NCBI GenBank assembly: GCA_963664705.1
Contig: OY761556.1
Coordinates: forward strand, 6,830,880 to 6,894,879
DNA from: Acidobacteriota bacterium
Lineage (GTDB): Bacteria; Acidobacteriota; UBA6911
Direction of reading: 5' to 3'
Length of the DNA stretch: 64,000 nt
A model generated the notes under the pieces. That model searched no databases. It saw only the letters and a program-made list of their open reading frames with translations, and was not told the DNA's origin. Within the stretch, counting starts at the first letter, position 1, and every line of letters starts with the position of its first letter. Positions 37,943 through 41,799 of the stretch are shown piece by piece. Position numbers and translations under genes: made by a program.

Positions 37943-39748
37943 TCAGACCGTCTTCTTCTGCTGCCCGAGAATGCACAATCCATCCTCACATTCATGATAG
38001 GCGGGCATGCGGAGAGGTTTTTTATCCAGTTTGATTCCGGCCTTGGGTATCCACTTATCCACGGATGCGGTCTTGTAATAGACATAGTCGGTTGCGTGGA
38101 AGATTGGATTGGTCTCGCCTCCTACCACCACAAAATTGATCCCCTCCGGTTTCAGGAAAGGGGAATTGGATTTTTCAGCCAGATGCTTGCTCAGCTTGTC
38201 CGGGTCATCCCAGCCTTCGGCTTTCAAGGCCTTGACCGCGAGCGGGTCCACCACGAAAGTGTAGGTGCCCATCGATTCAAAGGCCTTCATGCGCTGAAGC
38301 ATTCCCGCGGTAGTGCCGATCCCCAGGGTCACCACGTTCCAGCCGCGGAAAATGCTGACAGTGCTTTCCGATGCTTTGAATCCCTTGCGTACGTGAAATG
38401 GCTTCCAGGGGCTCTTTCCTTCATTTTCGGCGCAGCACTGGTTGGTAAAGCTCAGACCATTGCCGATCGTCGCCATGAAGGTATCGCCGGCGCGGGCATC
38501 TCCAAAATTGATGCTCATGAGCGTCCAGGTTCTGCCAATGACCGAATTGGCATAATTGAACGGGCCCATAGCGCCTACGCCGCTGTTCATGCCGATGGTT
38601 TTGGACGCCGGACCGTTGACTACTACCATGCTGCCGTAGGATCCGGTGGAACTCGGCATTGCGGGGTGCTGAGTCGAGGCGATTGCCAGAATGACCGGCA
38701 GATGCTCCGGCCTGGCACCGGCCATGACCGCGTTGATGGCAACCTTTTCAACCGTATATTCCTTCATTTCCTCGTGAGTGGTGACGGACATCATCCCGAC
38801 TACTTCCTGCGGGTCATGATCCGTGCCCGCTAGCATTTCGGCGACTCTTTCCTCGGTCGGGAGCACGATCGGCAGACCGTCAGTCCAGCCGTTTCTCAGG
38901 AACAGGTGCTGAAGGTTCTCCTCGGTGTCCGCTTCCAGCACGCGCGGCCGTCGGGGCTTCTTGGGAATCTCCGGATTCTTTTCTGCCTCGGTCAGCGGTT
39001 TTGTCAGCGCATCGATTATTTCAGTGGTTAACTTCACACCGGTGACAGGATCGTCGCCCTGTACGTATTGGCGCAGCGTTTCTCTTGAAACCCACGCGAC
39101 CGGATATGGGGGGAAGGCCCAGCGCAGATTCATGCCGTGAGAGTTGCCGTCGCGGATGACATAATCCGCAAACCGCGCGGTGACGATGGGCGCCGTGGGA
39201 AGACCATACTCTCCTTCGATGGTTCGCGAAAATTCGGCGAGACTCGCCGAACAGCCGTCTCAGCCACCAACGCCGAAGATCACGCCATCCGCTTTTTTCT
39301 TGAGCACTGCCCAAAGGTCCGGGCTGTCGGAGAATGGAGTGCCCCCTTTGGTGACCAGCACTGTCTTGACGGCGGGCATGTTTTTGGTGAACCACGTCTG
39401 CAATTCCTCGAGAAACTCTTTGGCTCCTGCGAACCCTGTATCCACCAGGTAGATGGTTTTATTGTCCAGGCTTGCCAGCCGTGGCGCCATTCGCAGTGCA
39501 ACCAGTTCGTCCCGGGTAATGGTGGGATGCGTGTCCGGGTTGAAAATGGCCATCATATGGGAATCCGGAGCCCCGCGTCGGCCGAATTTCCCGGACGGCT
39601 GCCCCCGGGGATCAAGCACCGTTACCTTTTTTGCTTCGGAATTGGCTGATCCGGACAGGTACCTGCAACCGCTGCAAGAGGCCAGAATGATCGTGCCGAC
39701 AAAAAGCAAACTCCAATACCGGCTGACGCTGTATTGTGATGAACTCAT
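37943..39748 (-). CDS. UGSC-family selenoprotein (Sec at TGA 39262-39260, motif U-D-G-C), probable lipoprotein
   Basis: Track ORFs 39260-39853 and 37943-39133 are in frame; read-through FGVGG-U-DGCSASLAEFSRTIEGEYGLPT; WTDGLPIVLPTEERV; lipobox-like LASC. Confidence 0.88.
39233..39259 (-). promoter_or_regulatory. Putative bacterial SECIS
   Basis: Perfect 8-bp stem UUCGGCGA-GUC-UCGCCGAA just 3' of the UGA. Confidence 0.7.
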
Positions 39749-39879
39749 GTTTTTCCTCTGCCTGACGCCCATGAAAATAGCGTCAATAGATCTTGGACTT
39801 CTTGGATATACCGCATGGATACTGATGGCGCGAGTGTAGCATCGAAGGACCATTCGCGGGTAAGCATTTTACTGCAGAG

Positions 39880-40112
39880 CGCCGCCGTCCCGGCTAATGC
39901 TGCATGATAATTGTTCTGAGCTCTGCGATGCCAGCGAGGCAACAGGCCCGGAGGGCCGAAAGCGAGTAGCCAGGGGTGAAGCGCAGCGAACCCCTGGGAA
40001 GATAAGTGCGAAAAAGAGCCCTGAAAGGGCGAAAGATCGGAATTCTGCCGCCCCTTCAGGGCTTGTTACTGATTTAATCCAATCCAGGGGTTCGCTACTC
40101 TCACCCCTGGCT
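39880..40112. repeat. REP-like cluster, left part (continues at 41653-41800)
   Basis: GTAGCCAGGGGTGAAGCGCAGCGAACCCCTGG and GCCCTGAAAGGGC units; last unit cut at CCCCTGGCT. Confidence 0.85.
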
Positions 40113-40203
40113 GATATGGAGTGATCGGTCAAGTACAATCAATCCGTTCCTTGTTCGTTCATTTTGGTTTTCTTCGGTTCATAAATAAATCAGCCAGTAA
40201 AAA

Positions 40204-40386
40204 GAACAGGGGATCGAGTTGGCAACAGCGACGATAATCAATCTGATATTCGCGGGTCGATAAGCACGCATGACAACTGATTCATCGGGAGCGGCCTCAC
40301 TCTACTTCCGTGGATTCTGGTTTCCCATACCAACATAGCCAGGTCGAGGTTTCTCCTTTCGAAGCCTGGAACTCGATCTCCTGTTC
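40204..40386 (-). ncRNA. Bridge RNA / seekRNA of the IS1111-type element
   Basis: 17-bp enclosing stem with one mismatch; segments CCUGGCUA and AAGUAG match the two target strands, and AUAUCAGA matches the donor junction. Confidence 0.8.
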
Positions 40387-40458
40387 CGTTCACTAACCGA
40401 ATGTTTCCGTTATTAATCCATTGAAGAACAAAATAGCTGCAAGAGCTGGTGCCTTATG

Positions 40459-41553
40459 TCATGCAACACGACCGATAGCCCAGATAAATCCTGCCAATTC
40501 TCGACTTACCGCAACCGCGATCTTTTGTCTTTCTTTCCCTCGGTTGAGCATGCGTCGGAATTTTTGATTCAATCGCTTATCGCAACGTTGTGCAATCTCG
40601 ATAACTTCTGCCGGCAAACACTCTCGTCGTTTCTTGAGAGTTTTGCCAGCTACTGAAGAATGACGGTAGTGCCAGGCGCTTTCGATCAGCACCCTACGTA
40701 GGTGGCTGTTTCCCGTTTTGGTTATCCTTCCCCGTCTTTCAAGTTCACCTGAGCTGCTTTCCGAAGGCACCACCCCAATAGCGGCCATAAACGAAGGCGC
40801 ATCAACGAACCGTCTTAAATCGAGCGCTTCTGCGATAATCGTCATCGCCGTCAGAACCTGAACACCTTTTAGCGCCATCAAATAGCTGACTCGCTTTTGA
40901 TAGTTCGGCTGTTTTGCAACTTCCTCGATTTTTTCCTGGAATTTTTTCAACCGCTCCGTCTGTTGCTCAAGCGCCTGTCGATATTCCTCCAGTACTGTTT
41001 GATCCCCATCATCCTCAAACACAAGGCTCTTAATCCATTTTAGGTGCCCAAGCGACCAGTTCTTGCCCTGCGGATATTTCAATCCACGTCGCATCAGAAA
41101 CCGTGCTAATCGATGCCGTGCTCGCTGCTGGTCTTCCAATGCGTCTTCTCGCGCGCGCACTAGATCTCGCAGACTTTCCTGTTCTTTTTGCGGGATCACA
41201 ATACATGTTAGTTCTCCCGCTCGGTACAATTTGCCCAGGGCTTTCGCATCCAGCTTATCCGTTTTTACTTTTTTCCCCGCTCGTCTCGGGGTCAACGAAG
41301 GGGCCGCAACCTCACAAGAAATCCCATGTTTGGCCAAATAGCGCTGCAAATAGTATCCATTAACGCCCGCTTCGTAGACGCACCGTACATCATCTTCAAA
41401 TGCCCTTAGCTTTTTCGCTAATCGCCCCAGCCCCGTACTGTCGTTTGATACAACAAGTTCTTCTCGTGGGTTACTTTCCTGCCCGCGAAAAACTGCGACG
41501 TTTATCTTTTTTGCTGAATCATCCATCCCTACCCAAGTGATACAATCTGCCAT
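40459..41553 (-). CDS. IS110 family DEDD recombinase/transposase
   Basis: VGMD, YEAG, KTDKLDA (DEDD) and GVVPSESSSG...GRITKTGN (catalytic Ser domain). Confidence 0.96.
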   Translation of the reverse strand: MADCITWVGMDDSAKKINVAVFRGQESNPREELVVSNDSTGLGRLAKKLRAFEDDVRCVYEAGVNGYYLQRYLAKHGISCEVAAPSLTPRRAGKKVKTDKLDAKALGKLYRAGELTCIVIPQKEQESLRDLVRAREDALEDQQRARHRLARFLMRRGLKYPQGKNWSLGHLKWIKSLVFEDDGDQTVLEEYRQALEQQTERLKKFQEKIEEVAKQPNYQKRVSYLMALKGVQVLTAMTIIAEALDLRRFVDAPSFMAAIGVVPSESSSGELERRGRITKTGNSHLRRVLIESAWHYRHSSVAGKTLKKRRECLPAEVIEIAQRCDKRLNQKFRRMLNRGKERQKIAVAVSRELAGFIWAIGRVA

Positions 41554-41799
41554 GATCGGTCTCCTCATGTTTTATGGCTCTGCAGCTTTGTCACCACGAC
41601 TTCAGCTGTAACCCACGATATTACATGCTAGAGACCGATCACTCCATTATGTCTACTTGCTTTCGGCCCTCCGGGCCTGTTGCTCCACTCGCGTCGCAAG
41701 GCTCAGAACAATTCATTGGCGGCATTAACCGTCCCGGTGGGCACCCGCGACGTTGAGGCGGCTGCGCCTTGACGGCGAGACGCCGGCGGTCACGGTGCT

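What the first reader, a model, noticed from the sequence alone, without database searches (positions are those of the whole stretch)
40113..40458. Readable bridge/seekRNA that programs an IS1111-type recombinase to the host REP
Seen, in element orientation: the target is GCAAGT-AG-CCAGGGG and the donor circle junction is CCATATC-AG-ACATAAT. Inside a 17-bp enclosing stem (40204-40220 with 40370-40386) the RNA has, 5' to 3', CCUGGCUA (40343-40336, reverse complement of TAGCCAGG) and AAGUAG (40307-40302, left target plus core). These are followed by UGUC (40275-40272, a weak right-donor match) and AUAUCAGA (40249-40242, donor junction). Established: IS110/IS1111 elements use such bispecific RNAs, encoded 3' of the gene in IS1111 types. 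The class is known; this member and its specificity may be new and reprogrammable.
Basis: partly seen in the sequence, partly recalled or inferred. Interest (0 to 1): 0.75.

Follow-up and report, generated by a model that had tools for sequence, protein, structure and literature searches.

The report
RNA-guided jumping gene targeting host repeats
This small jumping gene carries a predicted guide RNA whose short segments match the host repeat it sits in and its own two ends, so it likely moves by the RNA-guided recombination described in 2024; it is a new member of a known kind, and its relatives carry a predicted antisense copy of one guide hairpin at the other end.

Summary
Observation confirmed. 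The stretch is the right end of a 1,540-bp IS1111-type element (ISSso6/ISCARN28/ISEc45 subgroup). The genome has 11 full copies; 10 sit at the same GT-AG-CC(A/G)GG position of a GTAG-type REP with a RAYT-like gene, and the 11th keeps a 10-nt match to one guide. In 52 clusters of relatives with different flanks, all four guide segments and both handshake positions covary with target or element ends (permutation p about 1e-4 or lower). The 'weak' UGUC is chance-level alone, but its position is a real donor guide. Read on the other DNA strand, the core is CT and the layout is IS621's. The class is known (Durrant 2024 modelled ISCARN28; ISPa11 targets REPs), and this scan noted a similar element in another genome. 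Extra: in 35 of 42 relatives the left end carries the guide-hairpin arms on the antisense strand, next to a conserved antisense -10 box in transposase codons 3-6. This predicts an antisense RNA mimicking the guide hairpin; my searches found no paper on it. In this copy one arm is degenerate. No RNA data; nothing was tested at the bench.

The parts
40113..41652 (-). Whole IS1111-type element, 1,540 bp between two AG cores
   Evidence: 11 full copies in the genome, 99.0-100% identical, with sharp ends
40459..41553 (-). DEDD recombinase/transposase gene, 364 aa (D11, E61, D102 invariant in 19 relatives; VVPSESSSG motif with invariant S267)
   Evidence: PF01548 + PF02371, NF033542 over cut-off, alignment A1
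41653..41654 (-). Left AG core (CT on the + strand)
   Evidence: sequence; present in all 11 copies
40111..40112 (-). Right AG core (CT on the + strand)
   Evidence: sequence; present in all 11 copies
41633..41647 (-). Left subterminal inverted repeat, 15 bp, 7 bp from the end counting the AG
   Evidence: I6, 100%
40116..40130 (-). Right subterminal inverted repeat, 3 bp from the end
   Evidence: I6
40127..40132 (-). -35 half (TTGACC) of the predicted circle-junction promoter
   Evidence: 17 bp from CATAAT once the ends are joined through one AG (read); promoter activity inferred
41646..41651 (-). -10 half (CATAAT) of the predicted circle-junction promoter
   Evidence: inferred
40204..40386 (-). 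Predicted bridge/seek RNA core with enclosing stem 40386-40370 / 40220-40204
   Evidence: scaffold pairs supported in 42 relatives, 87.7% of cells paired, 16 of 28 pairs with two-sided change
40337..40344 (-). Target loop, 5' guide ACCUGGCU (complement of AG-CCAGG-T; equals the IS621 LTG when the DNA is read from the other strand)
   Evidence: covaries with right flank, 214/294 matches vs 83 shuffled, 49 clusters
40302..40308 (-). Target loop, 3' guide GAAGUAG (same as left target + core)
   Evidence: 152/245 vs 84 shuffled, 49 clusters
40300..40301 (-). Target-loop handshake dinucleotide AG
   Evidence: matches the element's first two bases 79/104 vs 58 shuffled; no signal against the target
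40272..40279 (-). Donor loop, 5' guide CAGUUGUC (4 of the last 6 bases pair with the left end here; ends at the core G, as IS621's LDG ends at the first core base)
   Evidence: 162/260 vs 116 shuffled, 52 clusters
40243..40250 (-). Donor loop, 3' guide AAUAUCAG (same as right end + core)
   Evidence: last three end bases 155/156 vs 140 shuffled
40241..40242 (-). Donor-loop handshake dinucleotide AU (does not match the target in this element)
   Evidence: first base matches target +1 in 19/52 vs 10 shuffled, p=1e-4
40084..40110 (-). Right part of the interrupted REP: hairpin CCAGGGG...CCCCTGG
   Evidence: 142 pattern matches in the genome
41655..41680 (-). Left part of the interrupted REP, ending AAGCAAGT
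39966..39997 (+). Partner REP in inverted orientation (REP doublet)
   Evidence: (I1, I4, I11)
41551..41647 (-). 5' leader hairpin of the transposase mRNA; an internal copy of the inverted repeat (41563-41551) would cover the ribosome-binding site and start codon
   Evidence: I18; fold z=-5.2
41551..41652 (+). Predicted antisense RNA of the left end carrying the guide-hairpin arms (5' arm 41572-41582, degenerate here; 3' arm AACCCACG 41610-41617, intact)
41538..41546 (+). Predicted antisense extended -10 box TGATACAAT inside transposase codons 3-6
   Evidence: third base T of codon 4 in 35 of 42 relatives vs 12.4 expected from synonymous use

Best explanation
This is the right end of an IS1111-type insertion sequence whose two RNA loops match the host GTAG-REP site and the element's own joined ends, and it likely works as a bridge/seek RNA that guides the element's recombinase. 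Shown here: the element's ends, its copies, their target, the RNA scaffold, and covariation of all four guides and the handshake bases with target or donor DNA. Inferred from IS621, ISEc11 and ISPa11: the element is released as a circle joined through one AG; the junction forms a TTGACC-17-CATAAT promoter that transcribes the transposase gene and the RNA; the RNA is cut out, perhaps at the enclosing stem; one recombinase dimer binds the target loop and opens (A)AGT-AG-CCAGG, another binds the donor loop and opens ATATC-AG-ACA; strands are cut at the core through phosphoserine links and exchanged, helped by the handshake bases. Read on the + strand the core is CT and guide order, guide lengths and linkers follow IS621, so the reversed order of IS1111-type guides likely reflects a flipped reading of the DNA, not different chemistry. 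The working target is about 10 bp (-3 to +5), which in this genome points mostly to REPs.
For: Copies: 10 of 11 full copies in the REP at one position and orientation, plus a truncated left end at the same position; the 11th (C1:2938671) lies outside any REP at ATGAT-AG-CCAGGT, a 10-of-10 match to ACCUGGCUAU. AAGTAGCCAGG occurs 20 times in the genome, 19 in REPs. Occupied REPs are CCAGG in 9 of 10, against 34 of 86 intact empty ones (Fisher p=0.005), as the guide's U predicts; the REPs flanking the RAYT-like gene are the CCGGG form. Covariation in 52 clusters at 90% RNA identity, repeated in 40 clusters at 80%: four guides each p=5e-5 (limit of 20,000 permutations), cross-controls null. In close pairs 28 of 30 guide differences match each element's own flank. 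L082, 79% identical in protein, has guide ACUGGGCA and right flank CCCAGG. Scaffold: 87.7% of cells paired vs 27-45% for slid controls. IS621 numbering from PMC11208158.
Against: No RNA data: expression, ends and processing are unseen. No circle junction appeared in the seven assembled runs laid. The full 7-nt left guide plus right guide (GAAGTAGCCAGG) occurs 0 times in the genome, and only 6 of 11 copies match AAGT on the left, so distal positions tolerate mismatches or other factors help. Among intact REPs the preference for A at -3 is not significant (8 of 10 vs 44 of 86, p=0.10). The donor 5' guide pairs at only 4 of its last 6 bases here. A few relatives do not match their flank (L060, L061, L162, L163). 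Clusters are related, so permutation p-values overstate. The structure counted was drawn by me from these sequences.
Confidence: 0.92

Rival explanations
1. seekRNA-only mode: only the target loop is used in the cell as a short processed RNA, the ends are recognised by the protein through the inverted repeats, and the donor loop is dispensable or acts in only one step.
For: PMC11187229: the 82-nt short RNA of ISEc11 is enough for movement. Long 15-bp inverted repeats are present. The donor 5' guide is the weakest match in this element.
Against: Both donor guides and the handshake bases covary with the ends across 52 clusters, including rare end variants AAC, ACC, CCT and AGC that are all followed by the RNA, so the donor loop is under selection to pair with the ends.
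Confidence: 0.12
2. REP structure or REP-bound host proteins, not the guide sequence alone, decide where the element lands.
For: 10 of 11 copies are in REPs, although TAGCCAGG occurs 213 times with only 42 in REPs. Several occupied REPs mismatch the left guide.
Against: The longer guide-matching word is itself REP-restricted (AGTAGCCAGG 26 of 29). One copy lies outside any REP at a guide match. Selection against insertions in genes could also enrich REP sites. Relatives carry 51 different flank words in 52 clusters.
Confidence: 0.15
3. The matches are chance, or relics of target DNA copied into the element.
For: Single matches are short; AAGUAG has p=0.097 and UGUC p=0.68.
Against: Joint p about 2e-4, fixed positions in a conserved scaffold, and covariation in relatives.
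Confidence: 0.01
4. For the left-end module only: it acts on the sense strand, as part of the mRNA leader hairpin or by pairing of the leader with the bridge RNA, and no antisense RNA is made.
For: In this element the sense fold is as stable as the antisense fold (-40.5 vs -37.2 kcal/mol). Leaders pair slightly better with their own bridge RNA than with others (mean -1.9 kcal/mol, p=0.002, 41 elements; this element ranks 8th of 41). The window copy's 5' arm scores -0.6 of 9.8 bits.
Against: Antisense -10 signature. Consensus fold -12.6 antisense vs -8.7 sense; G-U cells outnumber A-C cells on the antisense reading (74 vs 14, and 27 vs 13 using the sense-derived structure). GNRA/UNCG loops 5 vs 0 of 40. 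The variable arm pair does not track the bridge RNA of the same element (T in the left end with C in the donor loop in 16 of 17).
Confidence: 0.3

Closest known systems
ISSso6 / ISCARN28 / ISEc45 subgroup of IS1111-type elements (ISCARN28 bridge RNA modelled in Durrant et al. [quoted passage not shown]
   Same: Transposase 38% identical to ISSso6 and 36% to ISEc45. ISSso6 is 44% identical to ISCARN28 and ISEc45 and 14-25% to the other elements in the 218 columns shown, which include ISEc11, ISPa11 and IS1111A (PMC11187229 source data); it is listed there as IS1111. An ISSso6 copy has the same right-end scaffold and left-end motif.
   Different: New element; nearest database proteins are unnamed (88% and below). 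Different target. I saw only the legends of the ISCARN28 figures, so I cannot compare the guide assignment.
ISPa11, ISEc11, ISKpn4 seekRNA elements (Siddiquee et al. 2024, PMC11187229)
   Same: Subterminal inverted repeats 7 and 3 bp from the ends, non-coding region 3' of the gene, top-strand match 5' of bottom-strand match; ISPa11 also targets a REP.
   Different: Distant transposases (about 20% for the subgroup). That paper describes target matches only; here a donor loop and handshake bases are readable.
IS621 bridge recombinase (PMC11208160, PMC11208158, PMC13626964)
   Same: Two internal loops, four guides, handshake dinucleotides after the 3' guides, REP target, CT core when read on the other strand, donor 5' guide ending at the first core base before an A-U linker, conserved A seven bases before three of the four guides. 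Best PDB relatives are ISCro4 and IS621 (E about 1e-23).
   Different: RNA is 3' of the gene and pairs with the opposite strands relative to the gene; long inverted repeats; both loops branch from one enclosing stem; conserved A-to-G spacing is 6 rather than 5; the fourth arm lacks the conserved G.
ISPpu9 with Asr9/Ssr9 (PMC8450116, PMC12288879)
   Same: IS110-family element in REPs with an AG core, a structured leader and an antisense RNA whose promoter lies in the first transposase codons.
   Different: ISPpu9 has its bridge RNA upstream, so Asr9 would be complementary to it. Here the bridge RNA is downstream and the predicted antisense RNA carries the same arms as the guide hairpins.
GTAG-type REP with RAYT/TnpA(REP); Rfam Acido-Lenti-1 (RF01687)
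   Same: GTAG precedes the hairpin in 89 of 142 matches. The single PF01797 gene found is flanked by inverted copies. RF01687 scores over cut-off at 12 places of 150 scored candidates, and weakly on the REP beside this element.
   Different: The REP definition by a GTAG tetranucleotide is recalled, not from a call. Whether the 12 over-cut-off RF01687 hits are these REPs was not checked one by one.

Membership tests
IS110/IS1111 superfamily | DEDD RuvC-like domain plus C-terminal serine (Tnp) domain | tested here: met
IS1111 type | Subterminal inverted repeats, 7 bp from the left and 3 bp from the right end | tested here: met
   15-bp perfect repeat, 5+AG left and 3 right; same spacing in 91 of 176 loci examined, the rest lacking an end or not fitting my pattern
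IS1111 type | Long non-coding region downstream of the transposase gene | tested here: met
   346 bp right vs 99 bp left
IS1111 type | Top-strand match 5' of the bottom-strand match | tested here: met
IS1111 type | Transposase inside the core IS1111 clade (ISEc11, ISPa11, IS1111A) | tested here: inconclusive
   No tree built. Nearest named elements are ISSso6 and ISEc45, a block only 14-25% identical to the others shown but labelled IS1111 in the source data
IS1111 type | Specific target, one orientation, no duplication beyond the core | tested here: met
Bridge RNA systems | Target-binding loop with two guides covarying with the target | tested here: met
Bridge RNA systems | Donor-binding loop with two guides covarying with the element ends | tested here: met
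Bridge RNA systems | Handshake bases covarying with the non-cognate DNA | tested here: met
   (family level; in this element only the target-loop A fits)
Bridge RNA systems | RNA is expressed and bound by the recombinase | not testable with these tools
   no RNA holder listed
Bridge RNA systems | Circular intermediate with junction promoter | tested here: inconclusive
   Promoter halves present at 17-bp spacing; no junction seen in assembled contigs, which drop rare forms
Bridge RNA systems | Reprogramming by guide change | not testable with these tools
   natural retargeting seen in relatives only
REP/RAYT repeats (target) | Multicopy hairpin with 5' GTAG and a flanked Y1 transposase gene | tested here: met
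   intergenic location not counted

The most novel reading that the evidence does not exclude
This subgroup makes a second RNA: an antisense transcript starting at the transposase start codon that is an inverted duplicate of the bridge RNA's recombinase-binding hairpin, with the guide positions closed or occupied by anti-ribosome-binding-site sequence. The recombinase would bind it as a decoy loop, so transposase level would set how much antisense RNA covers its own ribosome-binding site: RNA-guided self-regulation of a bridge recombinase. Support: the arms are the best match outside the bridge RNA in 35 of 42 elements, a 35-nt hairpin in L130 differs from its donor loop only by one compensatory pair, and the antisense -10 box is conserved against codon expectation. 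In the window's copy one arm has decayed.
Probability: 0.4. Interest if true: 0.75.

Novelty: new member of a known kind. Interest (0 to 1): 0.5.

Why it matters
The element is a fully readable, recently spreading IS1111-type bridge system with 11 natural insertion sites, and its relatives give about 50 natural retargetings of one scaffold. The covariation bears on a live disagreement: IS1111-type RNAs in this subgroup do have a selected donor loop and handshake bases, and their reversed guide order maps onto IS621 by reading the other strand. That gives design rules for a subgroup with no solved structure among my PDB hits. The short target (about 10 bp) limits its value as a tool. The predicted antisense hairpin mimic, if real, would be a regulatory layer not found in my searches and easy to test.

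Tried and rejected
Expression: no RNA holder listed. Laying seven assembled runs and one raw-read run: no circle junction; the raw run had 0 reads laid, so it was no test. The joint that skips exactly the element (40110 to 41653) comes at least in one run from a long contig of another REP locus, so I did not count it as excision. Rfam has no family for the RNA (two weak hits, both on flanking repeats). Four end or scaffold strings were not found in the Durrant supplements; long cells are cut and one PDF was unreadable there, so this says little. A DNA search for further copies in four related genomes found only the known one. The promoter scanner did not list the antisense site, because it needs a -35 box and none is evident. 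The position profile was uninformative (5 rows long enough) and was replaced. The Fisher test of A at -3 used 7 instead of 8 of 10 and was rerun. The idea that the left-end loop guides to a DNA target was dropped: its would-be core bases pair with each other, with G-U pairs in some relatives (by eye). Rows left out: 85 of 176 loci without both ends recognised; one duplicate locus dropped and four added by hand, giving 94 loci and 74 distinct RNA cores; loci with short flanks drop out of single tests (n given); L061 was left out of the protein alignment and of the left-end alignment. No tree, structure prediction or complex prediction was run.

Full report
Observation. Every string and coordinate in the finding is in the sequence. 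The region is the 346-bp right end of an element spanning 41652-40113 on the minus strand, between two AG dinucleotides. It encodes a 364-aa protein with PF01548 and PF02371 and NF033542 over cut-off. A perfect 15-bp inverted repeat lies 5 bp plus AG from the left end and 3 bp from the right. Joining the ends through one AG places TTGACC 17 bp from CATAAT (read). In 5,000 shuffles of the enclosed 183 nt, the three longer matches together appeared once; UGUC appeared in 68%.

Copies and target. The 6.9-Mb genome holds 11 full copies (99.0-100% identical) and one 92-nt left-end stub. Ten full copies and the stub sit at the same position of one repeat, GT-AG-CC(A/G)GG. The eleventh lies outside the repeat at ATGAT-AG-CCAGGT, which matches ACCUGGCUAU in the RNA at 10 of 10 positions. 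The repeat has 142 matches to my pattern, 89 preceded by GTAG. The only PF01797 gene found in the genome is flanked by inverted copies, so I call it a REP with its RAYT-like gene; the GTAG rule for REPs is recalled. Occupied REPs are CCAGG in 9 of 10 against 34 of 86 intact empty ones (p=0.005). The preference for A at -3 is not significant (p=0.10). The full guide-encoded 12-mer is absent from the genome. The host is likely an acidobacterium, from the labels of near relatives and RF01687 hits.

Relatives. Loci came from GTDB genomes (80), related genomes (30) and metagenomes (79). Of 176 loci with a transposase hit, 91 had both ends recognised; after one removal and four manual additions there were 94 loci and 74 distinct RNA cores, forming 52 clusters at 90% identity. 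Matches of guide to own flank against 20,000 permutations: target 5' guide 214/294 vs 83; target 3' guide 152/245 vs 84; donor 5' guide 162/260 vs 116; donor 3' guide 155/156 vs 140; target-loop handshake vs element end 79/104 vs 58; donor-loop handshake vs target 19/52 vs 10. Swapped controls and cognate-handshake controls were null. The pattern held in 40 clusters at 80%. In close pairs, 28 of 30 guide differences match each element's own flank. Pairing is strong at +1 to +4 and -1 to -3 and fades beyond. The A after the 5' target guide also tracks target -1 (43/52 vs 32.5), but it could equally be pairing within the RNA. Related clusters inflate these p-values, and some loci mismatch (L060, L061, L162, L163). 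The two-loop scaffold I drew had 87.7% of cells paired and 16 of 28 pairs with two-sided change in 42 sequences, above all 500 shuffles and the slid controls.

Mechanism. On the plus strand the core reads CT, the IS621 core. In that reading each 5' guide equals left DNA plus core and each 3' guide is the complement of right DNA plus core, followed by two handshake bases. The donor 5' guide stops at the first core base before A-U. These match the IS621 numbering in PMC11208158 (passages and section 7). I infer the same recombination chemistry with the DNA read in the opposite direction relative to the gene. Circle formation, RNA processing, binding and strand exchange are inferred, not shown. 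PMC11187229 (parts 1-3 of 9, passages, and supplement rows) reports that a short target-only RNA suffices for ISEc11 and that excision may not rejoin the flanks; a preprint (10.1101/2025.10.25.684509, abstract only) reports copy-out and direct-transfer routes. Those routes remain possible here.

Known relatives. Named elements nearest in two plasmid listings (100 rows of 1,324 records) are ISSso6 (38%) and ISEc45 (36%). The source data of PMC11187229 put ISSso6 at 44% to ISCARN28 and ISEc45 and label it IS1111. PMC11208160 (passages, legends and supplement rows) predicted bridge RNAs in 93% of IS1111 elements and modelled ISCARN28; I could not see the figure. ISPa11 and IS621 target REPs. So the finding is a new member of a known kind. 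This scan noted a similar element in another genome (e1-7893816); a sequence look-up found nothing like this RNA.

Left-end module. A pattern for the inner hairpin arms of the two loops matched the antisense strand of the left end in 61 of 71 sequences, the sense strand in 1, and shuffles in 0.7; I wrote that pattern after seeing the similarity. A weight matrix built only from bridge-RNA arms then put the best hit outside the bridge RNA on the antisense left end in 35 of 42 elements, a region of about 3% of the scanned sequence. The window's element is one of the 7 misses: its 3' arm is intact (11.7 of 13.2 bits) but its 5' arm is not (-0.6 of 9.8), and its left end aligns to its RNA no better than background. 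Of five plasmid relatives, two scored high (ISSso6, L195) and three low, including ISEc45. The module's stem covaries (U-A 22, C-G 18 of 41). In L130 a 35-nt stretch differs from the donor hairpin only by one compensatory pair. An antisense TAnnnT sits at a fixed place in codons 3-5 in 28 of 42 elements; the third base of codon 4 is T in 35 of 42 against 12.4 expected, codon 3 in 18 against 9.6, and codons 2, 5 and 6 show no excess (misframed rows were kept as misses). No -35 box is evident. Strand evidence favours antisense in the family but not in this element's fold, and leaders pair slightly better with their own bridge RNA than with others (p=0.002), so a sense-strand role is not excluded. 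An antisense RNA with its promoter in the first transposase codons is known for ISPpu9 (PMC8450116 and PMC12288879, passages). An antisense RNA carrying the guide-hairpin arms was not found in searches (listings and abstract starts), nor in term look-ups in PMC11187229, PMC13626964, PMC13604230 and preprint 10.64898/2026.10.21.760802 (passages and section 8). Two Science papers on bridge recombinases cited there were not read, figures were not visible, and bioRxiv supplements were closed, so prior description cannot be excluded.

Verdict. The class is established; the member, its target and its readable donor and handshake positions are new but expected. The predicted antisense hairpin mimic is the part worth an experiment. 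Interest 0.5.

Noticed in passing
window 41538-41652 (+ strand); L001, L085, L130, L192 and others: Antisense copy of the bridge-RNA inner hairpin in the left end, with a conserved antisense extended -10 box in the first transposase codons; degenerate 5' arm in the window's copy.
   Followed up: partly
G000:C1:1439920-1440261 (L190:1408-1854): Single RAYT-like Y1 transposase gene flanked by inverted REP copies of the CCGGG form, which the element uses less often than the CCAGG form.
   Followed up: partly
window 39944-39974 and 36 places in G000: Rfam Acido-Lenti-1, described as a candidate RNA, scores on this genome's repeats (12 over cut-off); it may be part of a REP family rather than an RNA gene.
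   Followed up: no
G000:C1:4126127-4126219: Left-end stub of 92 nt joined to the REP hairpin, apparently by deletion between short GG-containing matches near the ribosome-binding site and the REP.
   Followed up: no
G000, 11 copies: Two sub-lineages (3 and 8 copies) differ at about 12 sites, nearly all in the gene; the guide region is identical in all 11. One copy (C1:4951995-4953086) has an in-frame stop.
   Followed up: no
L090 right end: A relative whose right-end RNA seems to have one hybrid loop, target 5' guide joined to a donor-like 3' arm, as if deleted between the two similar hairpins.
   Followed up: no
L045, L053, L121, L124 (AG/AA) and L089 (AG/AC): Relatives whose two junctions share only the A of the core; in the AG/AA cases the 5' target guide ends in UU, matching AA.
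   Followed up: no
window 40111-40139 (+ strand): Weak promoter-like match CTGATA-17-TACAAT reading into the right end, antisense to the RNA; 2 sites found vs 1.4 expected, so likely chance.
   Followed up: no
window 37943-39853 (- strand): Two ORFs separated by TGA next to the element; an earlier scan note (e1-3090004) reads them as one selenoprotein gene.
   Followed up: no
L190:2024-2152: Three tandem 43-nt repeats beside the RAYT-like gene.
   Followed up: no
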